IMG/VR virus record: IMGVR_UViG_3300025930_000141
Coordinates: 16,712 to 80,711 of that record
DNA length: 64,000 bases
Direction: 5' to 3' (one strand)
DNA from: a virus
Shown here: positions 19,718-34,464 of the stretch, piece by piece
Layout of the letters: each line of letters begins with the position of its first letter
Numbering within the stretch: position 1 is the first letter of the stretch
Notes under the pieces: generated by a model
Told to the model about the DNA's origin: nothing
Seen by the model: only the letters and a program-made list of their open reading frames with translations
Database searches by the model: none
Program-made: the position numbers and the translations under genes

Positions 19718-19790
19718 CCGAGCATGTTTGTGTTAATCGAAATGCGGACAGGTCTTGCACATGGTTGATAAACGACCAACGTCGGCTCGG
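19718..19790 (-). ncRNA. Y-RNA-like copy 1 (short)
   Basis: CCGAGCCGA...CGTTTATC...CGATT...CATGCTCGG shared scaffold. Confidence 0.7.
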
Positions 19791-19824
19791 ACTTGTTTTG
19801 TTGTATTTATACTGCCCATATCAG

Positions 19825-19897
19825 CAACCCCATTAGGATTCGAACCTAAACCATCTAGAACCAAAATCTAGCGTCCTGCCAATTAGACCATGGGGTT
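19825..19897 (-). tRNA. tRNA-Gln(TTG)
   Basis: cloverleaf; loop TT-TTG-GT. Confidence 0.9.
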
Positions 19898-20072
19898 GGG
19901 TTGCCGTCTTTCCGGCTGTCAGGCTTCCTGGGCCAGTGCCTTATATTTGTATACCGGTTATGACCGTGGCCGGTTGCAGCATCACCACTCGCATCCCACC
20001 CGTTTGTTGCAGGTTTTACTCTTAAGCGATACCCGCTCACCGGCCAAAGCCTTGTCCGTGTGCTGCGTGACC

Positions 20073-20102
20073 ATTGTACACCGGGTGTACCGGCCCTGTC
20101 AA
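20073..20102 (-). promoter_or_regulatory. SigA-type promoter
   Basis: TTGACA-18-TACAAT. Confidence 0.75.
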
Positions 20103-20104
20103 CC

Positions 20105-20431
20105 TCAGATGTTTCTGACCTCACATGGGTCAGAGTCACCCGGACACCATAACTTTAAACCGTCAGCGCGCCATACGCCGGACACGGGCTTATAGTCTAC
20201 CTCGGCATATCCGACCGGAGTCAGATAACGGTAAATCAGTGTGTTGTCGGCAGGGCGTAGGTCCAACCACAAGACACCAATACAGCCGCAAACGGTATTG
20301 ACCTTAGCACGGGTCATGCCACCCTTAACGCTTACCCACTCGGCGTGGGTCATCATCTGTGGGTCCTTGGCCTGAGCCGGTGCGGGTAACAGAACAAACA
20401 ATGCGGCCAAAGCCGCTACAATCTTTTTCAA
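20105..20431 (-). CDS. small secreted protein
   Basis: signal peptide ending AQA; GMTRAKV..CGC, WC. Confidence 0.65.
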   Translation of the reverse strand: MKKIVAALAALFVLLPAPAQAKDPQMMTHAEWVSVKGGMTRAKVNTVCGCIGVLWLDLRPADNTLIYRYLTPVGYAEVDYKPVSGVWRADGLKLWCPGDSDPCEVRNI

Positions 20432-20622
20432 CTTAATCCTTCTCGATAGTACGAAGCCACATCAAACTGCTGTGACCACGTTAGTGGGTAACCGGTCCAA
20501 TTGAATGAATCATATACCTGGCCGTCTACGAATACTCTGTAAAGGTACCGGCGCGGGTACAGTTTAATCTCGTCCAGGTATATATCCACCTTCGTCCTCC
20601 CAAGTGTCGGTGTACTTTTCAC
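20428..20622 (-). CDS. hypothetical protein
   Basis: coupled ORF. Confidence 0.5.
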   Translation of the reverse strand: MKSTPTLGRTKVDIYLDEIKLYPRRYLYRVFVDGQVYDSFNWTGYPLTWSQQFDVASYYREGLS

Positions 20623-20720
20623 ATTCTAAACAAACATTGTTAATCACGATGTTGACAATATTGTGTGCGTCTTTATAAACCACATTACATGAAGGACACC
20701 GCATTACTACACACATGACG

Positions 20721-20795
20721 AGCCACCTATGGGATTCGAACCCATGACCTCAAACTTACCAAGTTTGCGCGCTAACCTAACTGTGCCAAGGCGGC
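20721..20795 (-). tRNA. tRNA-Thr(GGT)
   Basis: cloverleaf; loop TT-GGT-AA. Confidence 0.92.
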
Positions 20796-20855
20796 GGGTA
20801 GGGAGCGGTACGCTCTGCAAAGTTAGTGCAGTCTAACCACGCCCGCTTACCCCAG

Positions 20856-20926
20856 AGCCCCTAGCCGGGATTGAGCCGACTTCTCCTGTTTACAAGGCAG
20901 GTGCATCACCTTAATGCTTTAGGGGC
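20856..20926 (-). tRNA. tRNA-Thr(TGT)
   Basis: cloverleaf; loop CT-TGT-AA; atypical T-loop. Confidence 0.82.
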
Positions 20927-21029
20927 GAGTGGTGTGTTTTATGTTTCAATACCGGGCTGCTCCGTCACCAGTCCCTAATGAAACAAATGTTCACCGTCCA
21001 TAGCGGCTGGGGGTTGCGCCGCCACCACG

Positions 21030-21103
21030 AGCCGATACGGGGAATCGAACCCCGGCTATTCTACATTACGAAAGTAGTACCATACCATTTAGGAGTTATC
21101 GGC
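21030..21103 (-). tRNA. tRNA-Thr(CGT)
   Basis: GCCGATA/TATCGGC; loop TT-CGT-AA. Confidence 0.82.
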
Positions 21104-21138
21104 AGAGGTACCAGGATAGCAGGCCCGGTACCAGATTG

Positions 21139-21882
21139 TCAAATGAACTTAAGCAGTTCAGACCATGGGCCGTGGTCAGAAGAATTATCGTCTATGTCCA
21201 CGTAGGCCGCTATTACTTTAAGTCCCTTTAATACTGCACCGTCGATAAGGCGACTACCATGTGTACCGCGCGACGGTAGCCGGTCAACAGCAGACCACAC
21301 CAGTTTCCACATTGGGAACTTAACCTTGATTGCCGCGCGAGCCCAGCGGTGCTTGAAGTTAATGTTCCAGTCACCGGCCAAGATAGAGGCGTCAGTCTTG
21401 AAATGTGTCTTTAGTTGATTACTGCGTCGGCGCAGGTTGTTTGTAGCCTGATGCCAGGCGACCACTCGGTCGGTATGACGGTGGTGGGCCAGGTCGCCCT
21501 CTACTCCCGAAGGGAAGTGACAAACCGAAACCACTACGCGCTTACCAGACTCAAGGTGTTCCAGTACCGCGTTTTGTGCATACAGCGGAGACGACAGGTG
21601 TCCACCCAACTTGAACAGGTGATGAGACACTAAGTACGACTCGTGGAAGATGACCTTAAATACTGACTTGTCATAAACAATGGCAGAGTCATCTTTGAGT
21701 CCCTTGTCGCCAACCACAACACCAAAGCCGGGTACGGCCAGGGCATCCTCGCGGCCCTCGGTAGCCACCTCTGTAAGTGTGATAACTTGTGCGGTTTGAG
21801 CGTACTTGAGTACGGCTCGATGCAATGCCTGAATACTACCCTTGTAGAACCCAGACGAATGCGTGTGCTTAAATCTAATCAT
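21139..21882 (-). CDS. endonuclease/exonuclease/phosphatase (EEP) family protein
   Basis: TLTE, AGDWN, IDG, SSDH. Confidence 0.8.
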   Translation of the reverse strand: MIRFKHTHSSGFYKGSIQALHRAVLKYAQTAQVITLTEVATEGREDALAVPGFGVVVGDKGLKDDSAIVYDKSVFKVIFHESYLVSHHLFKLGGHLSSPLYAQNAVLEHLESGKRVVVSVCHFPSGVEGDLAHHRHTDRVVAWHQATNNLRRRSNQLKTHFKTDASILAGDWNINFKHRWARAAIKVKFPMWKLVWSAVDRLPSRGTHGSRLIDGAVLKGLKVIAAYVDIDDNSSDHGPWSELLKFI

Positions 21883-21901
21883 GTGCTCAGTATATCACGC
21901 T

Positions 21902-22165
21902 TTAGGAGTCAGCGCCACTAACGTCGGTGCTCTTGGGCCTGCGAGCAAACTTCTCCTGGCGCTTGTCACGGCGCTTCTGGGCAGCCTTGTCCTTGCGGCG
22001 CTGGTACTTGCGATGCAGAGCAAAGATGGTAAGCACGTTACCCTTTAATTCGGTGTCCCAGTCGCCGTACTCGCGGTACTCTTTTTGGAGTTCTCGCAGG
22101 TAGTTAAGGTCGTCACTGATGATGTGCTTATTGCGTGGCCTAGACAATTTCCTCTGCCTTTGCAA
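21902..22165 (-). CDS. basic hypothetical protein
   Basis: Arg/Lys-rich ORF; start uncertain. Confidence 0.5.
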   Translation of the reverse strand: MQRQRKLSRPRNKHIISDDLNYLRELQKEYREYGDWDTELKGNVLTIFALHRKYQRRKDKAAQKRRDKRQEKFARRPKSTDVSGADS

Positions 22166-22487
22166 TAGCCTTATCCATGACCGCGACTACCTCGTCTTCG
22201 GTGCGACCTGGGGCATCGTTCCAGTATGGAATGTTTAGCAGTTCGTCGGCACGCTTAAACTCGGGGTACTGCTCCTGAACAATTTCCTGAATAAACTGTG
22301 CGTACGGCATGGCCTCTTCACGAACGTAATCAAACTCTCCGGTTTCCTCACCCAGAGCCAAAGCAATGTGGCCGAGAGTACAATAACCATTTGTGTCTTC
22401 ATCATAATAGGCATCCGTGGTCCAGCGACCCGGAATGTTTGTGCGCATCTTGCGCAGTACACTTACATCAATCTTGTTATCGGACAT
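22140..22487 (-). CDS. hypothetical protein (common in actinophages)
   Basis: CTLG...WNDAPGRT..EVV; GAAAGGA RBS. Confidence 0.65.
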   Translation of the reverse strand: MSDNKIDVSVLRKMRTNIPGRWTTDAYYDEDTNGYCTLGHIALALGEETGEFDYVREEAMPYAQFIQEIVQEQYPEFKRADELLNIPYWNDAPGRTEDEVVAVMDKAIAKAEEIV

Positions 22488-22506
22488 TAACTTTCCTTTC
22501 GTAGAG

Positions 22507-22578
22507 AGTCCCCAGCGGGACTTGAACCCGCGACCGGCAATTTAGGAAATTGCTGTTCTGCCACTGAACTATGGGGAC
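22507..22578 (-). tRNA. tRNA-Arg(CCT)
   Basis: cloverleaf; loop TT-CCT-AA. Confidence 0.92.
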
Positions 22579-22579
22579 G

Positions 22580-22655
22580 TGCGCCAGATGGGAGTCGAAC
22601 CCACATGTATCCATTATACTTTCAACTGCTTCGGGGGCAGGGGTAATACTAGCGC
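22580..22655 (-). tRNA. atypical D-armless tRNA-Arg(CCG)-like
   Basis: GCGCTAG/CTGGCGC acceptor, CTGC-CCCCGAA-GCAG, long region with AATGG, canonical T-arm. Confidence 0.65.
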
Positions 22656-22656
22656 A

Positions 22657-23103
22657 TTATGGTGGAGGTATTTCAATACCCCGGTCTACGTTATGTCTGT
22701 ACTCAAGAAGTCGCATGTGATGATATGCCCAAAAGACCAATTGAATAATCGCGGGTATAATTTGGAACCAATACCCGTGTGTTGAGTATACCACGACAGC
22801 ATAGAACCACACAAGGTAGCCGAGCAGCGGTCCAGCGCTAGAAATGGGCCTGTAGCGCATCAATAAATTCACGATGGACAGAACCACCGCTGCAATTGCT
22901 GCGACGCCCCAGAGGCTCACAGCGGGCACCAGGGCTATGTCTGTGGTCAACTGGTAGAGCACGCTGGCCTGCACCGACGCGGTGCTGGTGAAAAACACAA
23001 AGGCTATACCCATGTTCAGCGTATATGCCAACATAAGGTATAGCCAAAGAGGGAAGCGTTCACCCTCGCTTCGGTAGATTAATCTTGGCAAATACTTTCT
23101 CAT
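22657..23103 (-). CDS. 4-TM membrane protein
   Basis: four hydrophobic segments. Confidence 0.7.
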   Translation of the reverse strand: MRKYLPRLIYRSEGERFPLWLYLMLAYTLNMGIAFVFFTSTASVQASVLYQLTTDIALVPAVSLWGVAAIAAVVLSIVNLLMRYRPISSAGPLLGYLVWFYAVVVYSTHGYWFQIIPAIIQLVFWAYHHMRLLEYRHNVDRGIEIPPP

Positions 23104-23175
23104 GTACTGATTTTACCACACTGTCCACAAAAAGCATTGAGTCTGCTACTCTATCCCAAAAGAAGTTAATCATCG

Positions 23176-23247
23176 AGGCACTTACCGGATTCGAACCGGT
23201 ATAAAGTAGGGTTGCAATCTACTGGATAGCCATTCTCCCAAAGCGCC
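23176..23247 (-). tRNA. tRNA-Cys(GCA)
   Basis: GGCGCTT/AAGTGCC U73; loop TT-GCA-AC. Confidence 0.9.
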
Positions 23248-23525
23248 ATAGACCGGGCGGGCTGACTCACGAATGCAAGAAGTAGGGTTGTTGCTAGCAC
23301 AGAGCCCACGGTACTTTCGGATAACCAGCCGGTACGCCGCACTATCACGTAGCGCCCGGTAAAGCCTATTTAATTTTAACGCCCAGTCTTTCGACGTTCT
23401 TATCGTTCTCTACACCGTCCTTACCGCGCTGACAGCGCGGCGAACAGTAAACTCTGTCTTCGACAATCCAAAGGTGAGTTGCAATCCTGCACTTGCATTT
23501 AGTACATTTCACATTGGGTTCATTT

Positions 23526-23759
23526 TTACGTGCCCTGTGGGCCACGCTTGCGAGCGCGTTGCCGCGCCTCGTATGGAGTCGGCTCCCCACGGTCTCGGTA
23601 TTGCTCGTTTACGAGCCACGCCTTATGGTTTGCCTCGATGTTTGCCTTTTTCCTGCGCTGTGCTGCTTCCCAGCACGCCTTACGCTTTGCTCTGCGGTTT
23701 ACGTTCATCGCACGCTTCGGCAAGTTCTTGCGCAGTTTGGCGTCGTTTTGTCCAGCCAT
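23526..23759 (-). CDS. small basic protein
   Basis: Arg/Lys-rich; AGGGG RBS. Confidence 0.55.
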   Translation of the reverse strand: MAGQNDAKLRKNLPKRAMNVNRRAKRKACWEAAQRRKKANIEANHKAWLVNEQYRDRGEPTPYEARQRARKRGPQGT

Positions 23760-23934
23760 GACTTTTAGTCACCCCCTTAAGGTTTACCTAATCGTCATGG
23801 CTTGCTCCTATGTTGTTCAAACTTGTCTCCTGTTATGGATATACCGGCCCCTACGGGTCCAACGCCACCCACCCTCGGTAGGACGAGGTTAAGCGTGAAG
23901 CGTTCGGTAGTGATAGCACTCCCGACCGGTATTG

Positions 23935-24008
23935 TGGAGGTAAAGGGATTTGAACCCTTGACTTCTAGTATGCCATACTAGCGTTCTACCTGGCTGAACT
24001 ATACCCCC
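23935..24008 (-). tRNA. tRNA-Ala(GGC)
   Basis: G3:U70 pair; loop AT-GGC-AT. Confidence 0.92.
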
Positions 24009-24102
24009 AGGGCACCCTTTGTTAAAGCAGGTCTGGCGACTGCACCCCGCGCGCAGGGTCACGGCTTCTCGGCCCTTGTACTTTGGGTCTCATCCATCAT
24101 TG

Positions 24103-24175
24103 TGGAGGATACCGGAATCGAACCGGTGACTTCTACCTTGCAAAAGTAGCACTCTACCTGCTGAGTTAATCCCCC
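24103..24175 (-). tRNA. tRNA-Ala(TGC)
   Basis: G3:U70 pair; loop TT-TGC-AA. Confidence 0.92.
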
Positions 24176-24193
24176 AGGATTATTTAGTTAGCG

Positions 24194-24264
24194 TGGCGTA
24201 CGAGAGATTTGAACTCTCAGAGTAGGGATTTACAGTCCCGCTCCCTCAACCAACGGTGTACGCC
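24194..24264 (-). tRNA. tRNA-Tyr(GTA), atypical D arm and short V arm
   Basis: GGCGTAC/GTACGCC; loop CT-GTA-AA. Confidence 0.75.
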
Positions 24265-24274
24265 GTGTGGTCCC

Positions 24275-24303
24275 ATTGTACAGGTTGGGACCGTACCTGT
24301 CAA
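24275..24303 (-). promoter_or_regulatory. SigA-type promoter
   Basis: TTGACA-17-TACAAT. Confidence 0.8.
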
Positions 24304-24578
24304 GCCTGTGTTATTGTGATTTGTAGGAAGTCGTTGGCGCTTCCCTCGACCGGCTTGTGGTCCTCGTTAAAGTGACCATTGATGTTTACTACCCAATCAT
24401 GGTCGGGCCAGTTACGACCAAAGACCATGGTTCTATCAAATAGGTCGTAAACCACTTCACTTGCTGCGTCGATTGCTCGTACCGCTGCCTCGTTGTCCTC
24501 GACATTTACCATGTCTTGGACCTCACCCGTGTGGCTGTCGCCAGTATTCTTTAATACTACCTTTGCTGAAAAACTCAT
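24300..24578 (-). CDS. hypothetical protein
   Basis: coupled to upstream lysin-like gene. Confidence 0.55.
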   Translation of the reverse strand: MSFSAKVVLKNTGDSHTGEVQDMVNVEDNEAAVRAIDAASEVVYDLFDRTMVFGRNWPDHDWVVNINGHFNEDHKPVEGSANDFLQITITQA

Positions 24579-25339
24579 TAGCCCGCCAATACAGCGTCAA
24601 TATAAGACCATACGTTGCGCGGTGTAGTCGTGCCCGCTGGTGTATAAAACTGTGGACGACCCTGGCTAATCCAACGGTCTGCTCCACCTAGGCCTAGATT
24701 ATAAGACGCTACCGCGTCGCCTAGAACGCCATAACGCTGGAACGCTTGGTCATTACCCTTGCTGTTCTTGAAGTGTGTTAATGCGTTGTTCATGTAATTG
24801 GTTACAAAGTCGAATGCAATCTTTGGTCGGAACCGCTCGATTGCATCTAAGTCCGGGTGCGAAGGACCATTGATTTGTGCTAGTCCTAGGTCTTCCGGGT
24901 CCACGAAGCCTACCGCGCCAGCGTCCCATGAGGACTCGTGACGGATAATACCAGAAACAACAACCGGGGTAAGCGGTGGCTTACCGCTGGCCTCGACCTC
25001 TGAGATAAGGTCGGGGTACAGCAATAGGAAAGAACTGTCTTCCCCAATGCCGCCCCAAGGCGTTACGAAGTCCTTATGCTTGTTCTGGAATGTTGTAACT
25101 GCATCGCTCGTGGCCTGGTCGAACTTACCAGTAACCTTAACCGTTCCCTTGCCAAGTCTACGGTTGAGTGCTCGTTGATATGCCTTAACTGCATGATGAA
25201 CAGCAAAGTTATCTTGATTTGTAGTTGGGTCTAGTTCACCAGACCCGAGATAGTAATACGGTCCAGGCTTGGTTGACTTATAAGCCTTGGTACCGCCTGC
25301 GCCGGAATTATTCCAAGCGCCTCTTCCATGAGTTGCCAT
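24578..25339 (-). CDS. peptidoglycan-binding domain + lytic transglycosylase (endolysin-like)
   Basis: VKAYQRALN..TGKFDQAT..AVTTFQ; HESS, GLAQIN, ASYNLG. Confidence 0.8.
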   Translation of the reverse strand: MATHGRGAWNNSGAGGTKAYKSTKPGPYYYLGSGELDPTTNQDNFAVHHAVKAYQRALNRRLGKGTVKVTGKFDQATSDAVTTFQNKHKDFVTPWGGIGEDSSFLLLYPDLISEVEASGKPPLTPVVVSGIIRHESSWDAGAVGFVDPEDLGLAQINGPSHPDLDAIERFRPKIAFDFVTNYMNNALTHFKNSKGNDQAFQRYGVLGDAVASYNLGLGGADRWISQGRPQFYTPAGTTTPRNVWSYIDAVLAG

Positions 25340-25361
25340 AATATTATGTTCCCTTCGGGAG

Positions 25362-25431
25362 TGCTGATGCCGGGAATTGAACCCAGACCAAGTGGTTATG
25401 AGTCACTTCGGCTCGCCGTCGCCTCACCAGC
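25362..25431 (-). tRNA. tRNA-Met/Ile2(CAT), reduced D arm
   Basis: GCTGGTG/CATCAGC; loop CT-CAT-AA. Confidence 0.75.
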
Positions 25432-25523
25432 AATGCTACAGTTCTTACTAACGCACCGCTCCGCTCCGCTGTAGCACCGTGCGGAATCCCATGCGAATGG
25501 GCTTAAGGTACCCTATCCCATTG

Positions 25524-25596
25524 TGCGGTAGACGGGACTCGGACCCGCAACTTCCACGTTGGCAACGTGACACTCTACCAATTGAGTTACTACCAC
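25524..25596 (-). tRNA. tRNA-Gly(GCC)
   Basis: cloverleaf; loop TT-GCC-AA; A73, T-loop TCCGAGT. Confidence 0.82.
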
Positions 25597-25724
25597 TGGT
25601 GGGGCTTGGTTCTTTTATTTATGCAGGTTAAGAAACACCCCGGCAATAAGCCCTGCGTTATCCGTACTTCGTCTTAAGCCGTTTCTGGACCTTCACGAGT
25701 AAAGTTTCGAACCTTTACTGCTTG
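25597..25724 (-). ncRNA. pseudoknotted spacer RNA, copy A
   Basis: shares motifs and covarying helices with 25801-25927; ends ACCA. Confidence 0.7.
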
Positions 25725-25800
25725 TGACGTGGACGGGAATCGAACCCGCAATGGCAAGAGATTGAAAGTCTCCGCTGCAACCGCCAGTGGACACCACGCC
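25725..25800 (-). tRNA. tRNA-Glu(TTC), atypical D arm
   Basis: GGCGTGG/CCACGTC; loop CT-TTC-AA. Confidence 0.78.
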
Positions 25801-25927
25801 TGGTCCGAGGGTCAACACTTTGGATTAGACTGGAAAGTCCCTCGGGCGCTAAAACCAGTGTTACGGGGCCACGTCTTAAGCCGCTACTACCGTCTTCACG
25901 AACAAAGTTTCGAACCTTTGCTGCTTG
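25801..25927 (-). ncRNA. pseudoknotted spacer RNA, copy B
   Basis: see copy A. Confidence 0.7.
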
Positions 25928-26001
25928 TAGCCCCTACGGGATTCGAACCCGTCATCACACAGATTGAGAGTCTGGTATCCTTGCCACAAGACCCAGAGGC
26001 C
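25928..26001 (-). tRNA. tRNA-Glu(CTC)
   Basis: cloverleaf; loop CT-CTC-AA. Confidence 0.85.
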
Positions 26002-26012
26002 GTATGTCACCA

Positions 26013-26041
26013 ATTATACAGGCTGGTGACCCACCTGTCAA
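26013..26041 (-). promoter_or_regulatory. SigA-type promoter
   Basis: TTGACA-17-TATAAT. Confidence 0.85.
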
Positions 26042-26046
26042 GCCTG

Positions 26047-26451
26047 TCAGGGGACGCTGTTGCCGTAGCACTTATCAGGGTCACACCACAACTTATCAAA
26101 TACCCGCCACGGTGCCCCAGCACTAAACTGACGATACGTCAGGATAACGTTTACGTGAGGCGGCGCGCCGTTGTATTGGACATTCTTGAATGCGTGTCCG
26201 TTGTTATTCCAAGAAGCAATCTTTTCACCAGAGCAGTCACAAATGTTTTCTGCTTGAGTTTGGGTTGCTCCACTGGTGGAGTCGTCTCCCGGACACAACT
26301 GGCCTGCCTGAGCATCAATCTCAACAGTACACAAACCCGTGTACTCGCTCTTGGTCCAGGTACCCACAAAAGCGTGGGCCGGGGAGACGGTTGAAAGCAT
26401 TAGCGTCAGACCAGACAACAGCGTGGCGGTCAATAATAGCATTTTCTTCAT
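26047..26451 (-). CDS. secreted Cys-containing protein
   Basis: signal peptide ending AHA; ICDCSG, LWCD. Confidence 0.65.
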   Translation of the reverse strand: MKKMLLLTATLLSGLTLMLSTVSPAHAFVGTWTKSEYTGLCTVEIDAQAGQLCPGDDSTSGATQTQAENICDCSGEKIASWNNNGHAFKNVQYNGAPPHVNVILTYRQFSAGAPWRVFDKLWCDPDKCYGNSVP

Positions 26452-27976: not shown

Positions 27977-28049
27977 TGACCCCTCTCGGACTTGAACCGA
28001 GGACTCTTGGTTTAAAAGACCAGCACTCTACCAACTGAGTTAAGGGGTC
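27977..28049 (-). tRNA. tRNA-Lys(TTT)
   Basis: cloverleaf; loop CT-TTT-AA. Confidence 0.92.
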
Positions 28050-28077
28050 CTAGCGAGCCGGTCGGCTCGCGTCTTTT

Positions 28078-28197
28078 CTAAATGATGCTCGTGACATAGC
28101 AACTGCCGCCCAGATTGGCAATCCAATCATTCCGGCGACGAGTGTAACGCTCTTTCATGTAGTTATTCATTTCTACATTATAATTTGCGTATCCCAT
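28078..28197 (-). pseudogene. truncated HNH-endonuclease-like remnant
   Basis: YMKERYTRRRNDWIANLGGSC resembles HNH N-terminus but stops at 39 aa. Confidence 0.45.
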
Positions 28198-28198
28198 G

Positions 28199-28271
28199 TA
28201 CCCCTACCGAGGCTTGAACTCGGAACTTTCAGTTTAAGAGACTGCTACTCTACCAATTGAGTTATAGGGGC
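28199..28271 (-). tRNA. tRNA-Lys(CTT)
   Basis: cloverleaf; loop CT-CTT-AA. Confidence 0.92.
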
Positions 28272-28375
28272 AAAGATTAAAGGCTTTGCAAGGTGACTTT
28301 CTGGTTTAACCGCCAGAGCACCTTGGCGGGGAACAGCCGCCTGGTCCTTGTTCAAGGGAACATATTTTGCCTAAG

Positions 28376-28458
28376 TGACCATGGTGGGGTTCGAACCCAC
28401 AGTACCCATTCGGGACAGGTTAAGGGCCTGTTAGACTAGCCAATTGTCAAACACGGTC
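28376..28458 (-). tRNA. class II-body tRNA with CTT anticodon
   Basis: GACCGTG/CATGGTC; ACAGG-CCCTTAA-CCTGT; V arm CCC-GAAT-GGG. Confidence 0.7.
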
Positions 28459-28459
28459 A

Positions 28460-28535
28460 TGGGGTGACTAACGGGAATCGAACCCGCATATACTTGCACC
28501 ACAAGCAAGCGCATTACCAGTCTGCCATAGCCACC
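28460..28535 (-). tRNA. tRNA-His(GTG)
   Basis: G-1:C73, encoded CCA; loop TT-GTG-GT. Confidence 0.93.
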
Positions 28536-28821
28536 ATGGCCCGCCGAAGCGGGCATTTAATTAGAACCTACTTGCAATAGCAAGAATGATTACCACAATA
28601 AGGATAATCAATAGGATACCCCAAATACTCACGTACCTCACCACCTACCCTCAAGGGTAACAGGTGAGCGTTCAGTTGTCAAGCCGATGTTTTGGGCTTT
28701 CACAACCACAAGCATATACCCCATAAGTGTCAGACCACATGAGGTCGGGACATTTATCGTGGTCGTCGTCTAGGCAAAATACACAATGGGGCATTTCACC
28801 TTCATATAATTCATACATACG

Positions 28822-28894
28822 CGCCCCCGGCAGGATTCGAACCCGCGACCACTAGAGTAGAAAACTAGCACTCTGTCCACTGAGTTACGAGGGC
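28822..28894 (-). tRNA. tRNA-Arg(TCT)
   Basis: cloverleaf; loop TT-TCT-AC. Confidence 0.9.
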
Positions 28895-28895
28895 A

Positions 28896-29081
28896 TTACC
28901 AGCCAGCCCACTCTGCGCCCCCCCATTTGACCCAATCAATGTTTCCAGCCATTATGTCATCAACACAAGGCTTACATGCATCATAGGGAACGCGCTCGTT
29001 TTGTTTGTCTACCATTTCCAGTACACCGTCCGCTGGACGGGAATTGCAAATGTTACACCACTTAATTGCTCCTGGCATCAT
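28896..29081 (-). CDS. small Zn-finger-like protein
   Basis: CNIC...CKPC. Confidence 0.55.
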   Translation of the reverse strand: MMPGAIKWCNICNSRPADGVLEMVDKQNERVPYDACKPCVDDIMAGNIDWVKWGGAEWAGW

Positions 29082-29256
29082 TTTCTTATTTGTCTGTATT
29101 CGACTTCTGTTACTTCTACCGCTCCCTCGGTGCCGGTGGCGAATACGTCTCGCAAGGCGTCCAGAGCGTCGTCGTCGTCAAATGCTTCAATCTCGCACCA
29201 AACGGAAACCTTAAACTTGTACTTTTCCATGCTTCAATTGTAGCATAGATTGGGTC

Positions 29257-29631
29257 TTAGAGAAGTTCTCGACGCAAATCGTGGAACTTGTCTGCGTCAC
29301 CGTTGGCAATGGCGGTAAGCATGTCAATGGCCTGCTCGTTATTTGTGTCGTAAAACAACGACGACCATTCGTACCGGTCCAGACCAAGATAATCTCCCGC
29401 AGCGTAGTCAACGGCACTGAGAACAATTTGACCTTCCTGCTGCCATTGAACCGTACCGGCTACGCACATGGTCGTGTCACACAGATTTACCTGACCAGTG
29501 AAGTGTCGCAAATCTTCTACAGATGCGTCTTCCCAACTAACGAAATTGTTCTGGTCGTGACGCTCTGGGTACATACGAAGGTAATCGAGAGCCTGCTGGG
29601 CAACGCGCTTGGTGTTTTCTGTTACGTCCAT
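29257..29631 (-). CDS. hypothetical protein
   Basis: HDQ...CDTTMCVAG motif typical of actinophage proteins. Confidence 0.65.
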   Translation of the reverse strand: MDVTENTKRVAQQALDYLRMYPERHDQNNFVSWEDASVEDLRHFTGQVNLCDTTMCVAGTVQWQQEGQIVLSAVDYAAGDYLGLDRYEWSSLFYDTNNEQAIDMLTAIANGDADKFHDLRRELL

Positions 29632-29718
29632 TACTTACTCCTAGATAGGCCGAACCAACGTGGTCCGTGTTTGTAACAATACTTTTCTGGATATGCGATA
29701 AAGATGTTAATGTTCATG

Positions 29719-29791
29719 TACCCTCGACAGGATTCGAACCTGCGACCTCTTCGTCCGTAGCGAAGCGTTCTATCCACTGAACTACGAGGGC
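29719..29791 (-). tRNA. tRNA-Arg(ACG)
   Basis: cloverleaf; loop CT-ACG-GA. Confidence 0.93.
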
Positions 29792-29795
29792 ATGT

Positions 29796-29901
29796 ATTCG
29801 GATATGGTACGAAGTCGATAGGACACCAGTCCCAAATAGGCAGGAATCGAACCTGGCCTCGCTAACTTTGGCAACGATAAACGACTATCATCGACCCGAA
29901 T
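29796..29901 (-). ncRNA. Y-RNA-like copy 2 (with T-arm)
   Basis: CGGGTCGA...CGTTTATC...CAGG-TTCGATT-CCTG...CATATCCG. Confidence 0.75.
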
Positions 29902-29912
29902 TAAGTATTAAA

Positions 29913-30029
29913 TTAGCAGGAATGGCAAGGCCAGTTTGTGTCTACCCTGGCCTCAGATGGAGCGGCGACAGCGCCGACCAGTCCAAGTGCCATTACAGCG
30001 GCGGCAAGCGCGCCAGCAATTCTCTTCAT
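29913..30029 (-). CDS. 38-aa secreted peptide precursor
   Basis: GGAGG RBS; signal peptide + RVDTNWPCHSC. Confidence 0.7.
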   Translation of the reverse strand: MKRIAGALAAAVMALGLVGAVAAPSEARVDTNWPCHSC

Positions 30030-30050
30030 TGCAACCTCCCGTGATAAGGT

Positions 30051-30156
30051 TGGGCATAATTGTAATCGGAATTTAAGTCTACTTTGCGCTTGGAGGCGCA
30101 CGTGCTATTTACACCAATAGGGAAGTCCCCATAGATAACCGATATACTTCGGCCCA
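30051..30156 (-). ncRNA. Y-RNA-like copy 3
   Basis: TGGGCCGA...CGGTTATC...CCGAT...TATGCCCA. Confidence 0.75.
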
Positions 30157-30157
30157 G

Positions 30158-30228
30158 AGCGGGTACGGAGAATCGAACTCCGGTAATCTGATTGGAAGTC
30201 AGGAGCACTACCATTGTGCTATACCCGC
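30158..30228 (-). tRNA. tRNA-Gly(TCC)
   Basis: GCGGGTA/TACCCGC U73; loop CT-TCC-AA. Confidence 0.93.
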
Positions 30229-30229
30229 G

Positions 30230-30301
30230 TAGCGCCACTGGGACTTGGACCCAGTTTTCTCGGGCTTCAACCGAGCGCATATCCATACATGCTCTGACGC
30301 C
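30230..30301 (-). tRNA. tRNA-Phe(GAA)
   Basis: loop TT-GAA-GC; T-loop TCCAAGT. Confidence 0.82.
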
Positions 30302-30350
30302 TTGGCTGTACCCGGCCCCACATTTGCTCGATGAGGCCGGGTACAATGCA

Positions 30351-30379
30351 ATTGTAACAGGTCAGACTGAGCGTGTCAA
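30351..30379 (-). promoter_or_regulatory. SigA-type promoter
   Basis: TTGACA-17-TACAAT. Confidence 0.8.
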
Positions 30380-30593
30380 GTCTACGACCCACTCTTCTAA
30401 CTTGCTGTCAATGTAATAAAGAACTTGGTCCTTTATCTCAAATTTACCGTCACGATGGTCGTACAGGTCGCCCTGTCTGACACCCCAATAAACCGGGACC
30501 CTCACAAAAGTGCTCCAATTACTAGTGCACACAAGAGCAATAGCACAAACAGGAATAATCCGAAGTCTGCTAGAAACTCAATTATGTTGTCTA

Positions 30594-31589
30594 TCATGCC
30601 TTGATAAGCAGTCTCGTGTTTGGCATCAGGTTACGGTTAATCGAGGTTGACTGAACGAAAATGTCGTAGTCCGGGTTGTAATCGGGCTTTACCCGTACCG
30701 TGTGGCTTGGTAGGCCAATAAGGTCACGAGCATTCTGACCACCATAAGCCTTACCGGTAGACTTCTCTACTACGATAATAGACTTCTGTGGCTGAATGTT
30801 TTCAGTCTTTGTCAACTGGTAGTAACCCATACCCTTGGAGTAGGCGTAACCCAGGCGACGAACAAAGTCGTCAATGCGGGTCTTGGAGTCTACGTTGTAG
30901 AACTCATAACCATCCAAAGGCTGTAGGTTCTTAACCGTTGCCTTGTTTACCGCATCTGCGCCTGTCGAGAAGACGGCGCGCGAGCCACGTACACCGCTGG
31001 CACGGTTTGTCATGAAGTTGTCTGTGGCCGTACGGATGGTGCTGACGGCCTCAACAATTCCAGTGGCACTAGTGGTGTCCCAAATTGCTACGGAGCCTGC
31101 ATCGGCCCCCAGACGGCTCACATAGGCCTGTCCTGACCTGTCAGGCACCAGCCAACCGATGGTCCAGTTGTCTGCTGCGCGGTTTAGCATGTTTGCCAGG
31201 TCGTGAGCGCTGTGACGCGAGCGGTTTTCCTGTCCGTCGGTTAGGACGAATGTCAGGAATGCGTGGTCACCATAAAGTTGGCTGGTCGTAGCCAAGTCCT
31301 GCTGGCTCTTGATGGTTGCGTCAATAAGGGCGGTAAGTCCTCGGACGTTGTAAAGGTCACTAATCGACGGTAGACGCATTACGTCCATATCGAAGATTAG
31401 GCACTCTACGTTATCGTGGAACAGATATACGCTGACTCGCGTCTCTTGTTGCAATTCTTCGCTTCTCAGAGCGAGGTAACGAATCTGTTCGTCGGCTACC
31501 TGGATTAACTTGCTTCTGTGGCTCGTCATGCTGGAACTACCGTCCAGCACGAGCGCCACGTGATTAATTAGTCGTTGTGCTTTGTGCAT
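30594..31589 (-). CDS. vWA (MIDAS) domain protein
   Basis: VLDGSSSM, TALIDA, LTDGQEN. Confidence 0.85.
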   Translation of the reverse strand: MHKAQRLINHVALVLDGSSSMTSHRSKLIQVADEQIRYLALRSEELQQETRVSVYLFHDNVECLIFDMDVMRLPSISDLYNVRGLTALIDATIKSQQDLATTSQLYGDHAFLTFVLTDGQENRSRHSAHDLANMLNRAADNWTIGWLVPDRSGQAYVSRLGADAGSVAIWDTTSATGIVEAVSTIRTATDNFMTNRASGVRGSRAVFSTGADAVNKATVKNLQPLDGYEFYNVDSKTRIDDFVRRLGYAYSKGMGYYQLTKTENIQPQKSIIVVEKSTGKAYGGQNARDLIGLPSHTVRVKPDYNPDYDIFVQSTSINRNLMPNTRLLIKA

Positions 31590-31681
31590 TAATTTCTCCT
31601 ATGGCCCCTTCGACAAGAGGAACATTACTAGAACGAGCGCCACTGTCAGCAGATATGCGACAACAGCAATTTCCGTGCCGC

Positions 31682-31903
31682 TCAAAACTTGAGCGCAACA
31701 CCAACAATTACTGCTAGTACACACAGAATGGGGAAGAACGGAATGAAACTGGCTAGAAACAGAAACAGTAACGAACCGCCACCCGCAACCATAAGGCCGG
31801 TGCCGACCCCTGACTTTGATGACTTCTCGACTTCATAAGAGTCTCGCTTGGTAATTGACATTGCTTTCCTAACTATCGAAGTTGCATTGTTTTGTACACT
31901 CAT
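31682..31903 (-). CDS. small membrane protein
   Basis: two TM segments; start uncertain. Confidence 0.5.
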   Translation of the reverse strand: MSVQNNATSIVRKAMSITKRDSYEVEKSSKSGVGTGLMVAGGGSLLFLFLASFIPFFPILCVLAVIVGVALKF

Positions 31904-31950
31904 TATACCAGAAGAGGGGCACTTTTTTCAAGTGCCCCTCTCTGGATTTG

Positions 31951-33549
31951 TCAGACTCGACCAGCGAAGAAGTTAGCCATTACGCTAGGCGTAGATGAGT
32001 CGAAACCTACTACGTCGAGCATACCGGCGTCCTTCGGGTCTGCCACGGTGAAGCCTGTTGAGACCATACCTACAGAAACTAGGCGGGCGTTGCGGCCACG
32101 AGAGTCGCGGTACTGCTTAAGTGCGACATTTGGCTTAACGCTACCGGCCCACGTCTCGTTGTCGGTGTAAACCGCGAAAGCATCAACATCAATACCCTTG
32201 CTCTTGGCGTAAACCATTGGCTGGGCAATGTCGGTGCCACCGAACGACAAACCGCTGACCTTACGGAGCACGGTTTCGAACGAATCGGCGTCACCGATGT
32301 TCAGGGTTACCAACGAAGTCGTGAAGGCGTTAACCACAACGTAAGGCTCGGTGCGCACGGTGACCATAGCCATGAGCGCAGCGGCCTCTCGACAGTTAAG
32401 ACCAACGAGGCCAGCAGGGGCGTACATGGTCATAGAACCTGAAACGTCAAGGCTTACCATGGTTGGAACACCGGCAGGCTCGACGGTCTTGAAGGACTCA
32501 TAGAATCCAGACTCAAGAGCGCCCAAAACCTTAGCGTTCATACCACGGTGCTGCTTACCGAGGATACCGCGAGCGTTGGCGTACTGGACTGGGTGTACCC
32601 GGCCCTTTACGATACGCTCGCCGTCAGCAAGAGCAATAGCCACGTCGCCTGCGAACTTAACGTCCTTGAAAGCACCAATCTCTTCGAACCGCTTGAGGTT
32701 ACGAATGAGAGCGGTCTGACCTAGAGCGCCGTTGTAGAAAAGCGTCTTCCATACGTCAGGGTCCTTAAGGAACTGGGTAGGAATGGTTTCCCAAGGAAGA
32801 GCCTTGTACGTGTTAAGAACGCGCACAACTTCCTTGGCGCTTGTGGTGCGCTGCATGGCCTTGAAACCGTCGATAATTTCCGGCGTGTTTTCAATCTCGG
32901 CACGGTCGGCCTTGATAGGCCCGCCAAGAACAAAGTCACCAATGCTAACGTTTACGCCCTTAGGGTGAGCAAGACGGAATACGTCGCGGTGCGTCCAACC
33001 GTCGCGCTGGCGGTACTTGACTACCTGATAAGCCAACTGGTTGTCGTCCTTAGACGTGTACCAGTCTGCAAGGCTACCGCGCTTTGCGCGACCAAGGCCA
33101 CCCAAGTCCTTAAGGTACTGTGCGTACTCGAAAAGGTGGGTACCGGTGCGGGCAACCTTAGGGACAAGCGCCCGAACGGCAGCCTTGTTCTCAGCGTTGT
33201 GCATGAGCAAGGCTAGCACGAAAAGGCTAGGGCTGTTCTTAGGTGCGCGGTTTTCGTCAGCGACAGCGCGGAGCGTGTCGATAACCAACTGCTCGTCAGA
33301 CTTGATAAGTGCGAGGACGAACTTAGCGTTGTCCTTGGTCAACTTACGCTCTGAGACGTAGTAGGTACCGCCGTCCGTACCAAGAATCAGGAATCGCTCA
33401 AGGCGAACCTGCGGCGTAACACCGAATACAAAACCTCCGGCGTTGTTACGTACCTCGTCGGTACGTCCAGGGGTACGCTTGTTCTGAGGCGTACCGTTGT
33501 AACGAGTGTTTGCGATTTCACCCGTTAAGTTCTTTAATGCGTTCTTCAT
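31951..33549 (-). CDS. rsr: Ro60/TROVE RNA-binding protein
   Basis: NNAGGFVF, RFLILGTDGGTYY, KYRQRDGWTHRD, LPWE, ALIRNL, RVHP, vWA DVSGSM, TDNETW, GFDS. Confidence 0.95.
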   Translation of the reverse strand: MKNALKNLTGEIANTRYNGTPQNKRTPGRTDEVRNNAGGFVFGVTPQVRLERFLILGTDGGTYYVSERKLTKDNAKFVLALIKSDEQLVIDTLRAVADENRAPKNSPSLFVLALLMHNAENKAAVRALVPKVARTGTHLFEYAQYLKDLGGLGRAKRGSLADWYTSKDDNQLAYQVVKYRQRDGWTHRDVFRLAHPKGVNVSIGDFVLGGPIKADRAEIENTPEIIDGFKAMQRTTSAKEVVRVLNTYKALPWETIPTQFLKDPDVWKTLFYNGALGQTALIRNLKRFEEIGAFKDVKFAGDVAIALADGERIVKGRVHPVQYANARGILGKQHRGMNAKVLGALESGFYESFKTVEPAGVPTMVSLDVSGSMTMYAPAGLVGLNCREAAALMAMVTVRTEPYVVVNAFTTSLVTLNIGDADSFETVLRKVSGLSFGGTDIAQPMVYAKSKGIDVDAFAVYTDNETWAGSVKPNVALKQYRDSRGRNARLVSVGMVSTGFTVADPKDAGMLDVVGFDSSTPSVMANFFAGRV

Positions 33550-33596
33550 TTTGTTTCCTTTCGTCCCGGTCGTTTCGGGAATGTTATATTAACGAC

Positions 33597-33686
33597 TGGC
33601 GGCTACTGTAGGATTCGAACCCACGGAAGGTTTTACCCTTCGCTTGTTTTCAAGACAAGTGCAATCGCCCACTCTGCCAAGTAGCC
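33597..33686 (-). tRNA. tRNA-Ser(TGA)
   Basis: long V arm, G73-CCA; loop CT-TGA-AA. Confidence 0.93.
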
Positions 33687-33690
33687 GAGT

Positions 33691-33833
33691 ATGCTGGATA
33701 TAAGTGCGAAATCGGGGTTTAACGGCGGCTTTACCATTTGCCTATACCCCACATGAATTGGGTGGGGCAACAGGATTCGAACCTGCATTCACCGGCTCCA
33801 AAGGCGATAACCGATATTCAATCGACCCAGCAT
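33691..33833 (-). ncRNA. yrlA: YrlA-type Y RNA (copy 4) with full tRNA-like domain
   Basis: closing stem ATGCTGG/CCAGCAT; T-arm, closed acceptor hairpin, D-arm TAGGCAAATGGTAAAGCC; adjacent to Ro60. Confidence 0.85.
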
Positions 33834-33842
33834 TAAGTTGTG

Positions 33843-33958
33843 TACCGAATATGTTATTGCAACGGAGTTTTTACTATATAGCATACAGCACACCGACAGG
33901 GCCGGTGTATTGGATTTGAACCAATGATTTCCGATAACCGTTAACATTCGACTCGGTA
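33843..33958 (-). ncRNA. Y-RNA-like copy 5 (T-arm + acceptor hairpin)
   Basis: TACCGAGTCGA...CGGTTATC...ATTGG-TTCAAAT-CCAAT...CATATTCGGTA. Confidence 0.8.
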
Positions 33959-33961
33959 TAG

Positions 33962-34035
33962 TAGCGGAGACGGGATTTGAACCCGCGTTGTCAGGATTAT
34001 GAGCCCTGTGTTTAACCGAACTAAACTACTCCGCG
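33962..34035 (-). tRNA. initiator tRNA-fMet(CAT)
   Basis: C1 unpaired, GGG in anticodon stem, loop CT-CAT-AA. Confidence 0.88.
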
Positions 34036-34037
34036 AG

Positions 34038-34110
34038 TGGGCCGTATAGGATTCGAACCTATGACTTCTTCGGTGTAAACGAAGCACTCTAACCACTGAG
34101 TTAACAGCCC
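34038..34110 (-). tRNA. tRNA-Val(TAC)
   Basis: cloverleaf; loop TT-TAC-AC. Confidence 0.93.
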
Positions 34111-34114
34111 ATGG

Positions 34115-34225
34115 TACCGGACATAAGGTTGAAATCGAGCGTTTTGACTGGGGACCGCCCCATGCACGAGTCGAACGTGCCCGACCTTATATTCAGTAAG
34201 ATAACCGATTTCATTCGGCCCGGTA
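34115..34225 (-). ncRNA. Y-RNA-like copy 6 (T-arm)
   Basis: TACCGGGCCGA...CGGTTATC...GCACG-TTCGACT-CGTGC...TATGTCCGGTA. Confidence 0.8.
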
Positions 34226-34235
34226 TTTAGTTTTG

Positions 34236-34309
34236 AGAGGATATGTGGTCGGCATCGTGTTTATGGTTAATTGCAATATAATTAGATAAACGATACCGTT
34301 CGACCCTCT
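34236..34309 (-). ncRNA. Y-RNA-like copy 7 (short, AU-rich apex)
   Basis: AGAGGGTCGA...CGTTTATC...CGATGCCG...CATATCCTCT. Confidence 0.75.
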
Positions 34310-34312
34310 TTG

Positions 34313-34387
34313 CGACCTTGAAGGGATTTGAACCCTCGGCTTCTAGCGTGACGGGCTAGCACTCTAACCAGACTGAGTTACAAGGCC
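34313..34387 (-). tRNA. tRNA-Asp(GTC)
   Basis: G73; loop CC-GTC-AC. Confidence 0.92.
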
Positions 34388-34399
34388 ATGTTAATTTAG

Positions 34400-34464
34400 A
34401 GCGAATATGTGGTTGACCAACGGGGGTTCATTGTTGTAAGATAACCGTCAATCTTCGACTCGCT
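34400..34464 (-). ncRNA. Y-RNA-like copy 8 (minimal)
   Basis: AGCGAGTCGA...CGGTTATC...CCGTTG...CATATTCGCT. Confidence 0.75.

What the first reader, a model, noticed from the sequence alone, without database searches (positions are those of the whole stretch)
19718..34464. One Ro60 protein with a library of eight Y-like RNAs carrying different payload domains
Seen: eight minus-strand elements (19718-19790, 29796-29901, 30051-30156, 33691-33833, 33843-33958, 34115-34225, 34236-34309, 34400-34464) share one scaffold. It has a terminal stem, 5' G(G/A)GYCGA pairing with 3' (C/T)ATRYYC to leave a bulged C, a second short helix, and an invariant CG(G/T)TTATC. Stems differ in sequence but keep pairing (T-A vs C-G next to the bulge; ATCGG/CCGAT vs AACGG/CCGTT vs GGTATCG/CGATGCC). 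The apical part varies: a full permuted tRNA mimic (T-arm, closed acceptor, D-arm; 33691), T-arm plus hairpin (33843, 34115, 29796), multi-hairpin (30051), or short loops (34236, 34400, 19718). Five copies sit just upstream of the Ro60 gene, interleaved with tRNAs. Known: Ro60 binds a bulged-C helix of Y RNAs, and bacterial YrlA RNAs carry a tRNA-like domain; bacteria usually have one to a few. Inference: a modular RNP system in which one phage Ro60 is programmed by many adaptor RNAs (tethering different nucleases/ligases, or acting as tRNA-shaped decoys), each excised by tRNA processing.
Basis: partly seen in the sequence, partly recalled or inferred. Interest (0 to 1): 0.9.

Follow-up and report, generated by a model that had tools for sequence, protein, structure and literature searches.

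The report
Phage Ro60 with eight Y RNAs
An uncultured soil phage related to large Streptomyces phages carries one gene for the ring-shaped RNA-binding protein Ro60 and eight small Y RNA genes scattered through its tRNA cluster; this partnership is already known, but eight is more than any published count I could find.

Summary
All eight minus-strand elements sit at the stated coordinates. Each has a 5-9 bp terminal stem, an unpaired C followed by GA(A), a 5-9 bp second helix, then (G/U)UUAUC exactly 10 nt (11 in one copy) after CGA. The apical part varies from 16 to 90 nt.

A covariance model built only from short RNAs beside Ro60 genes in other phage contigs ranks these eight as the top eight hits of the window. 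The same model finds 92 matches in 73 phage Ro60 loci, all on the Ro60 strand, and 74 in 80 bacterial Ro60 loci, 73 on that strand. All 12 modelled base pairs show compensatory changes.

They are therefore very probably Y RNAs. E4 is a YrlA-type tRNA mimic. E2, E5 and E6 carry a T-arm. The other four are hairpin forms.

Phage Ro60 with Y RNA-like RNAs is published, with one or two RNAs described per locus. Arrays of four to seven occur in other uncultured phages, so eight is the top of a range. Different partners for different payloads, and release by tRNA-processing enzymes, are plausible but untested.

The module matches animal Y RNAs and nematode sbRNAs: bulged C, 9-bp upper stem, UUAUC. 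This scan noted similar arrays and the UUAUC link on other DNA.

The parts
31951..33549 (-). Ro60 (Rsr/TROVE) gene, 532 aa
   Evidence: Pfam vWA_Ro60 1.4e-57 and TROVE 1.1e-34. PDB matches: 2nvo Rsr 4e-102, human and Xenopus Ro60 about 1e-85. It is the only TROVE match in the record.
34400..34464 (-). E8, short hairpin Y RNA: 7-bp lower stem, CGAA, 9-bp upper stem, UUAUC, 16-nt apical part
   Evidence: Model R1 gives 51.3 bits, E 3.7e-10. Anatomy. It lies 3 nt after a tRNA-like gene and 12 nt before tRNA-Asp.
34236..34309 (-). E7, short hairpin Y RNA: 7-bp lower stem, CGAA, 9-bp upper stem, UUAUC
   Evidence: R1 gives 31.8 bits, E 2e-5. Anatomy. It starts 2 nt after tRNA-Asp.
34115..34225 (-). 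E6, Y RNA with a T-arm (GCACG-UUCGACU-CGUGC) plus a GGGG/CCCC hairpin
   Evidence: R1 gives 34.4 bits, E 4.7e-6. Fold. It ends 4 nt before tRNA-Val.
33843..33958 (-). E5, Y RNA with a T-arm (AUUGG-UUCAAAU-CCAAU) plus two hairpins
   Evidence: R1 gives 35.9 bits, E 2e-6. Fold. It starts 2 nt after tRNA-Met.
33691..33833 (-). E4, YrlA-type Y RNA. After UUAUC come a short hairpin with a 7-nt loop, a T-arm, a 7-bp acceptor stem closed by a loop that begins C-CCA, and a D-arm.
   Evidence: The Rfam YrlA model aligns the T-arm, acceptor and D-arm at 18 bits, below the gathering score of 69. R1 finds the 5' half at E 0.033. The descriptor finds the whole element. It ends 4 nt before tRNA-Ser and 142 nt before the Ro60 start.
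30051..30156 (-). E3, Y RNA with a multi-hairpin apical part and no T-loop
   Evidence: R1 gives 20.4 bits, E 0.012. Both stems are 5 bp. It abuts tRNA-Gly with 0-1 nt between them.
29796..29901 (-). E2, Y RNA with a T-arm (CAGG-UUCGAUU-CCUG) plus a hairpin
   Evidence: R1 gives 26.8 bits, E 3e-4. It ends 4 nt before tRNA-Arg.
19718..19790 (-). E1, short Y RNA 12.2 kb downstream of Ro60: CGAC, 8-bp upper stem, UUUAUC
   Evidence: R1 gives 24.6 bits, E 0.001. It lies between tRNA-Gln and tRNA-Asn, 9 nt before the latter.
33597..34760 (-). Dense array of tRNA-Pro, a tRNA-like gene, and tRNA-Asp, Val, Met and Ser, in which E8 to E4 are embedded. It is probably one transcription unit running into Ro60.
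   Evidence: tRNA calls are. A promoter-like site lies at 34828-34799, and no terminator-like site on the minus strand lies between it and Ro60. These are weak consensus matches only.

Best explanation
The eight elements are Y RNAs, the small RNA partners of Ro60, encoded by a phage that also encodes Ro60.

Shown by sequence and comparison:
- Each copy carries the conserved Ro60-type module. This is a lower stem whose last pair covaries, a single unpaired C, G.U, the CGA(A) internal loop, a second stem of up to 9 bp, and UUAUC at a fixed distance of 10 nt from CGA.
- This module is the one that sits beside Ro60 genes, on the same strand, in many phages and bacteria.

Inferred from published work on relatives:
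- The module docks on the outer face of the Ro60 ring through the CGAA region.
- The RNAs are made as part of the tRNA transcripts. RNase P cutting at the 5' end of the next tRNA, and tRNA 3' end processing of the preceding one, would set them free.
- E4 has a 7-bp acceptor stem and an encoded CCA. It may also be cut by RNase P inside its loop, as M. smegmatis YrlA is.

Inferred with less support:
- The variable apical modules (a full tRNA mimic, a T-arm plus hairpins, plain hairpins) give the single Ro60 several different particles, each with its own partner or gating behaviour. One candidate partner is host PNPase, as in Deinococcus, Salmonella and Thermus phage phiLo.
- The purpose would be control of structured-RNA decay or repair during infection.
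For: - Exactly eight descriptor hits at the stated places, against 0.23 in shuffles.
- Model R1, trained without any window sequence, ranks the eight as hits 1-8 of the window with filters off, at E 3.7e-10 to 0.03. The next hit has E 0.68.
- R1 gives 92 of 92 matches on the Ro60 strand in 73 phage loci, mostly within 1.5 kb upstream. It gives 73 of 74 on the Ro60 strand in 80 bacterial loci.
- Covariation: 12 of 12 pairs have double changes. 91.9% of cells are paired, against 66.5% when shuffled and at most 48% when the partner is slid.
- Across the family the unpaired C is 97% conserved. The following G faces U in 61 sequences and C in 18.
- The CGA-UUAUC spacing is 10-11 nt in 61 of 69 viral and 76 of 86 bacterial anchors, and in 8 of 8 copies here.
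- The published motif GNCGAAN0-1G is exact in 5 of 8 copies and reduced to GNCGA in 3 (PMC4201824).
- In Thermus phage phiLo, Ro60 binds stem-bulge-stem RNAs upstream of its gene. Each CGAA base contributes to binding, and a complex with host PNPase forms (PMC12135203).
- M. smegmatis YrlA and YrlB are processed from one precursor upstream of Rsr, and YrlA is cut by RNase P.
- Tight tRNA interleaving recurs in related contigs L002, L005 and L030 and in Streptomyces phage Blueeyedbeauty.
Against: - There is no expression or binding evidence for this phage. No RNA run was available.
- Rfam's YrlA model scores E4 at only 18 bits against a cut-off of 69. No Rfam Y RNA, YrlA or sbRNA model reported a match to the other copies at E up to 10.
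- Three copies have CGA(C/U) in place of CGAA. All eight have A opposite A where most relatives have A-U.
- E1 lies 12 kb from Ro60.
- Nothing shows that the different apical parts bind different partners. They could be drifting under weak constraint.
- The covariation alignment was fitted to the model, which inflates pairing somewhat.
Confidence: 0.78

Rival explanations
1. Redundant copies. All eight are Ro60-binding Y RNAs, but the number serves dosage, timing or robustness. The apical differences would be mostly neutral, so there is no 'programming' of Ro60.
For: The conserved signal lies in the shared module only. Three copies have almost no apical part. Copy number varies widely between related phages, from 1-3 in cultured relatives to 7 in L030.
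Against: The copies are old and diverged, with 45% mean column identity, yet all keep perfect stems. The apical types (YrlA-type, T-arm type, hairpin type) match classes that recur in other species. That recurrence argues for selection on the payload.
Confidence: 0.17
2. Processing or spacer elements of the tRNA operon. The hairpins would only guide or punctuate tRNA maturation and would have nothing to do with Ro60.
For: Seven of the eight lie 0-12 nt from a tRNA gene on at least one side, and all eight lie inside the tRNA cluster.
Against: The same module sits beside Ro60 genes in bacteria and phages that have no tRNA array there, for example L052 with four copies and no tRNA. The strand bias follows Ro60 (92 of 92 and 73 of 74). 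The module contains the published Ro60-binding motif.
Confidence: 0.03
3. tRNA-shaped decoys acting without Ro60. The T-arm and tRNA-like copies would soak up host tRNA-directed nucleases or modification enzymes on their own.
For: Four copies have T-arms and E4 is a near-complete tRNA mimic. Phage tRNA clusters are often linked to defence against tRNA-cleaving systems (general knowledge).
Against: Four copies have no tRNA-like part, yet they keep the Ro60-type module as strictly as the rest. The module would be pointless without Ro60.
Confidence: 0.02

Closest known systems
Bacterial and mycobacteriophage YrlA / YrlB Y RNAs with Rsr (Chen et al. 2014, PMC4201824; Rfam RF02553)
   Same: They are encoded beside Ro60 on the same strand and carry a GNCGAA motif near the 5' end. 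One RNA has a T-arm, closed acceptor and D-arm domain, as E4 does. Another has only a T-arm, like M. smegmatis YrlB, as E2, E5 and E6 do. Others are simple hairpins. They are processed from a common precursor.
   Different: There are eight RNAs here, against the one or two described per locus. They are embedded in a tRNA array and spread over 15 kb. The upper stem and UUAUC are not part of the published description or of the Rfam model, which scores E4 far below its threshold.
Thermus phage phiLo Ro60 with Yrl1 and Yrl2 (NAR 2025, PMC12135203)
   Same: A phage-encoded Ro60 has stem-bulge-stem RNAs carrying CGAA just upstream of its gene. Binding to Ro60 and to host PNPase was shown in vitro.
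   Different: There are two RNAs there and eight here. No tRNA-like payloads or tRNA interleaving are described there. The Ro60 proteins are distant relatives.
Vertebrate Y RNAs and nematode stem-bulge RNAs (PMC4450293, PMC4726728)
   Same: The lower stem is interrupted by one bulged C and the upper stem has nine pairs. UUA(U/C)C lies at the 5' end of a variable loop. Several paralogues with different loops serve one Ro60.
   Different: There is no conserved GUG-CAC in the upper stem, no oligo-U tail and no polymerase III signals. No match to the Rfam models was reported at E up to 10. After the bulge there are two possible pairs where animals have three.

Membership tests
Bacterial/phage Y RNA (Ro60 partner RNA) | Encoded near a Ro60/Rsr gene on the same strand | tested here: met
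   All eight are on the Ro60 strand. Five lie 142-915 nt upstream, two lie 1.8-2.2 kb downstream and one lies 12.2 kb downstream.
Bacterial/phage Y RNA (Ro60 partner RNA) | GNCGAAN0-1G / CGAA motif near the 5' end, in a loop between two stems | tested here: met
   The motif is exact in E3, E5, E6, E7 and E8. E1, E2 and E4 have GNCGA followed by C or U.
Bacterial/phage Y RNA (Ro60 partner RNA) | Recognised by a model built from Ro60-adjacent RNAs of other genomes, with covarying stems | tested here: met
   R1 ranks the eight as the top eight hits. All 12 pairs covary across 92 relatives.
Bacterial/phage Y RNA (Ro60 partner RNA) | Bound and stabilised by Ro60 | not testable with these tools
   This needs EMSA or immunoprecipitation. 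No RNA data exist for this phage.
YrlA (Rfam RF02553), for E4 only | tRNA-like domain in the order T-arm, closed acceptor stem, D-arm | tested here: met
   The cmscan alignment places all three arms. Direct reading shows a 7-bp acceptor stem, C-CCA and a D-loop with GG.
YrlA (Rfam RF02553), for E4 only | Score at or above Rfam's gathering threshold | tested here: not met
   The score is 18.0 bits against 69. The 5' module is misaligned because the Rfam consensus lacks the upper stem and UUAUC.
Animal Y RNA / nematode sbRNA | Bulged C in the lower stem, 9-bp upper stem, UUA(U/C)C at the loop's 5' end | tested here: met
   The unpaired C is 97% conserved in the family and the UUAUC positions are 90-100% conserved. 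The spacing is 10 nt, which is A plus 9 bp. The animal features are taken from PMC4450293.
Animal Y RNA / nematode sbRNA | Conserved GUG-CAC in the upper stem, 3' oligo-U tail, match to Rfam Y_RNA or sbRNA models | tested here: not met
   The upper stems have unrelated sequences. The flanks are tRNAs, not U tracts. No such Rfam hit was reported at E up to 10.

The most novel reading that the evidence does not exclude
The Ro60-docking module of Y RNAs may be a single ancient unit shared by phages, bacteria and animals. It consists of a lower stem with one bulged C, CGA, a nine-pair upper stem and UUAUC exactly one helical turn further on. If so, UUAUC would belong to the Ro60 particle itself, either as a contact with Ro60 or with a universal partner. 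So far it is known only for its role in animal DNA replication assays. Phages would then have expanded this unit into sets of up to eight adaptors that give one Ro60 different partners.
Probability: 0.3. Interest if true: 0.7.

Novelty: new variant of a known kind. Interest (0 to 1): 0.5.

Why it matters
Ro60 and Y RNAs are studied mainly as human autoantigens and in a few bacteria. What the variable part of a Y RNA does is still largely open. A phage that supplies one Ro60 with eight Y RNAs of graded complexity offers a compact natural test set for that question. The set runs from a bare hairpin, through a T-arm, to a full tRNA mimic.

The comparative data gathered here also give a usable model for the short, hairpin-type Y RNAs. 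The Rfam models I searched did not detect them. They show a fixed CGA-to-UUAUC spacing that links prokaryotic Y RNAs to animal ones more closely than the published GNCGAA motif does.

Tried and rejected
- **Expression evidence.** No RNA holder was listed for this stretch. Laying contigs of four rhizosphere DNA runs showed only identical or unrelated sequence and no informative variants in the Y RNAs.
- **Rfam at gathering thresholds.** Only tRNAs were found. At E up to 10, the YrlA matches at 22527-22638 and 30185-30274 span two neighbouring tRNA genes. This is the artefact that Chen et al. warn about.
- **Ninth CGGTTATC at 49376.** It has no GNCGA or stems around it.
- **Ninth model hit at 16763-16815 (E 0.68).** It has GCCGACG and a lower stem but no UUAUC, and it overlaps small ORFs. 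I do not count it.
- **Relaxed descriptors.** They add only scattered hits inside coding regions on both strands.
- **Search for partner enzymes in the record.** There was no RNA ligase (PF09414) or Band-7 (PF01145) match, but the record is only 63% complete.
- **The conserved 331-aa gene after Ro60.** Folding shows a vWA domain plus a beta domain, which gives no clue to a catalytic partner.
- **Reviews by Sim and Wolin.** They could not be read here, so I cannot exclude that UUAUC in bacterial Y RNAs is already noted in them.
Full report
**What the window is**

The window is part of an 80.7-kb IMG/VR virus record, estimated 63% complete. It is 51% G+C and carries about 33 tRNA genes, all on the minus strand. 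Its nearest cultured relatives are the roughly 130-kb Streptomyces phages of the Stanwilliamsviridae. The Ro60 protein is 59.5% identical to that of phage Blueeyedbeauty. The same DNA occurs in several rhizosphere metagenomes.

The ORF at 31951-33549 (minus strand) is a full-length Ro60:
- Pfam gives vWA_Ro60 at 1.4e-57 and TROVE at 1.1e-34.
- It matches D. radiodurans Rsr at 4e-102 and human and Xenopus Ro60 at about 1e-85.
- It is the only TROVE gene in the record.

**Check of the observation**

A descriptor scan returns exactly the eight elements at the stated coordinates, all on the minus strand. Shuffled sequence gives 0.23 hits on average. The descriptor required a lower stem, CGA, an upper stem, KTTATC, and AT before the 3' strand.

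CGKTTATC occurs nine times in the window and eight of these are the elements. The longer pattern GNCGA-N4-16-CGKTTATC occurs eight times on the minus strand and never on the plus strand in the whole record.

Within the eight copies:
- The lower stem is 5-9 bp and the upper stem is 5-9 bp.
- The pair next to the unpaired C is U-A in five and C-G in three. Further pairs also change on both sides.
- CGA and UUAUC are 10 nt apart in seven copies and 11 nt in E4.
- The apical part ranges from 16 to 90 nt.

The copies are otherwise dissimilar, with 45% mean column identity. They are therefore not recent duplicates or a repeat family.

**Independent test against other genomes**

I fetched 72 IMG/VR loci and 80 bacterial loci that encode a relative of this Ro60. 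From 30 short hairpins next to Ro60 in the other phage contigs I built covariance model R1, using no window sequence.

- With filters off, R1's top eight hits in the 64-kb window on both strands are the eight elements, at E 3.7e-10 to 0.03. The ninth hit has E 0.68 and lacks UUAUC.
- R1 gives 92 matches in the phage loci, all on the Ro60 strand and mostly within 1.5 kb upstream.
- R1 gives 74 matches in the bacterial loci, 73 of them on the Ro60 strand. The hosts include Myxococcota, Chloroflexota, Actinomycetota and Gemmatimonadota.
- On the 92 phage matches, every one of the 12 modelled pairs shows changes on both sides. 91.9% of cells are paired, against 66.5% after shuffling and at most 48% when the partner is slid by one to three columns. 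This alignment was fitted to the model, so the figures lean towards the structure, but the margin is large.

**The module**

Across the family:
- The unpaired C is 97% conserved.
- The G after it faces U in 61 sequences and C in 18.
- The A after that faces U in 46 sequences.
- UUAUC is 90-100% conserved at each position.
- The upper stem ends in G-C pairs.

The distance from CGA to UUAUC is 10-11 nt in 61 of 69 viral and 76 of 86 bacterial occurrences. That distance equals one A plus nine base pairs, about one helical turn.

In this phage and its nearest relatives (L001, L002, L003, L005), the 3' side reads YAU where the family consensus reads CUU. As a result, A faces A in all eight copies. 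This looks like a lineage-specific change shared by the whole set.

**What is known**

- Chen et al. 2014 (PMC4201824) found YrlA RNAs beside Ro60 in 254 bacteria and 22 phages and defined the motif GNCGAAN0-1G. They showed that M. smegmatis YrlA and the T-arm-bearing YrlB are bound by Rsr and processed from one precursor. YrlA, with its 7-bp acceptor stem, is cut by RNase P. They also proposed that extra Y RNAs let Ro60 form particles with more partners.
- Work on Thermus phage phiLo (PMC12135203) showed that a phage Ro60 binds two stem-bulge-stem RNAs encoded upstream of its gene. Each base of CGAA contributes to binding, and a complex with host PNPase forms.

The kind of system is therefore published. 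The present set contains all the described classes:
- E4 is YrlA-type. Rfam's YrlA model aligns its T-arm, acceptor and D-arm but reaches only 18 of 69 bits, because the Rfam consensus lacks the upper stem and UUAUC.
- E2, E5 and E6 are T-arm types.
- E1, E3, E7 and E8 are hairpin types.

E4 has a 7-bp acceptor stem followed by C-CCA and a 7-nt loop. By analogy with M. smegmatis YrlA it may be split by RNase P. This is an inference.

**How unusual is eight?**

- With the same genome-search pipeline, which recovers five of the eight here, cultured relatives show one to three matches: Blueeyedbeauty 3, TunaTartare 2, Bxz1 2, Belfort 1, Jay2Jay 1.
- Among uncultured phages, L030 has seven within 1.7 kb upstream of Ro60. 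L023 has six anchor motifs, of which R1 confirms four. L068 has five anchor motifs, of which R1 confirms three. L052 has four.
- A Chloroflexota locus, L112, has five anchors.

Eight is the largest number I saw and exceeds what I could find in print. It is the top of a continuous range and not a separate class. Tight interleaving with tRNAs, at 2-9 nt spacing, also recurs in L002, L005, L030 and Blueeyedbeauty. This supports release by tRNA-processing enzymes, but nothing has been shown.

**Link to animal Y RNAs**

Nematode sbRNAs and vertebrate Y RNAs have a lower stem with one bulged C and a nine-pair upper stem. [quoted passage not shown] The prokaryotic and phage module found here has the same three features at the same spacing. 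The 2015 review calls bacterial Y RNAs not homologous to the vertebrate ones.

Formal membership fails. No Rfam Y_RNA or sbRNA match was reported at E up to 10. There is no conserved GUG-CAC and no U tail. I could not read the Wolin-lab reviews, so I cannot say whether this link is already in print. Earlier notes of this scan reached the same reading on other DNA.

**Verdict**

The Y RNA reading is well supported by comparative evidence. The adaptor-library mechanism and the processing route are reasonable inferences without direct evidence. This is a rich variant of a known phage Ro60-Y RNA system and is of moderate interest.

Noticed in passing
window 29913-30029 (-): A 38-codon ORF lies between E3 and E2, with GGGAGG 7 nt before the ATG. 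It encodes a signal-peptide-like leader (MKRIAGALAAAVMALGLVGAVAAPSEA) followed by an 11-residue tail with two Cys (RVDTNWPCHSC). It may be a small secreted peptide.
   Followed up: partly
window 30594-31589 (-): A 331-aa protein is encoded shortly downstream of Ro60, after a 73-codon ORF. It has a vWA domain with an intact MIDAS motif (DGSSS) plus a C-terminal beta domain. It belongs to phrog_26613 and has 2,663 metagenomic homologues. A gene of the same size follows Ro60 in Blueeyedbeauty, Belfort and TunaTartare. It could be a partner of the Ro60 particle.
   Followed up: partly
window 34761-35165 (-): A 134-aa ORF directly upstream of the tRNA/Y RNA array matches polynucleotide kinase-phosphatase families (phrog_415 at 1e-10, weak Pfam HAD_PNKP). 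This hints at an RNA-repair setting.
   Followed up: no
window 34468-34544, 22580-22655, 24194-24264, 25725-25800 (-): These are low-scoring tRNA-like genes (25-32 bits) that ARAGORN did not call. One of them sits 3 nt before E8.
   Followed up: no
L004:8340-8455 (+): A wcaG RNA motif (Rfam RF01761, 56 bits, above threshold) lies among the Y-like RNAs upstream of Ro60 in a 296-kb phage contig.
   Followed up: no
L001:17719-17790 and 17874-18005 (Streptomyces phage Blueeyedbeauty, NC_048720.1 65768-65839 and about 65923-66054); also record 95932-96024: These are unannotated Y-like RNAs in a cultured phage. Two of them flank tRNA-Ile, and the second is a YrlA-type tRNA mimic with AUUAUC in place of GUUAUC.
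   Followed up: partly
L030:8331-9820 (+): Seven Y-like RNAs lie in tandem within 1.7 kb upstream of Ro60 in a 74-kb IMG/VR contig. Outside this window, this is the largest array I found.
   Followed up: partly
window, all eight elements; L001, L002, L003, L005: In this clade the 3' side of the Ro60-site helix reads YAU, where the family consensus reads CUU. This puts A opposite A after the G.U pair in every copy. It may be co-adaptation with this clade's Ro60.
   Followed up: partly
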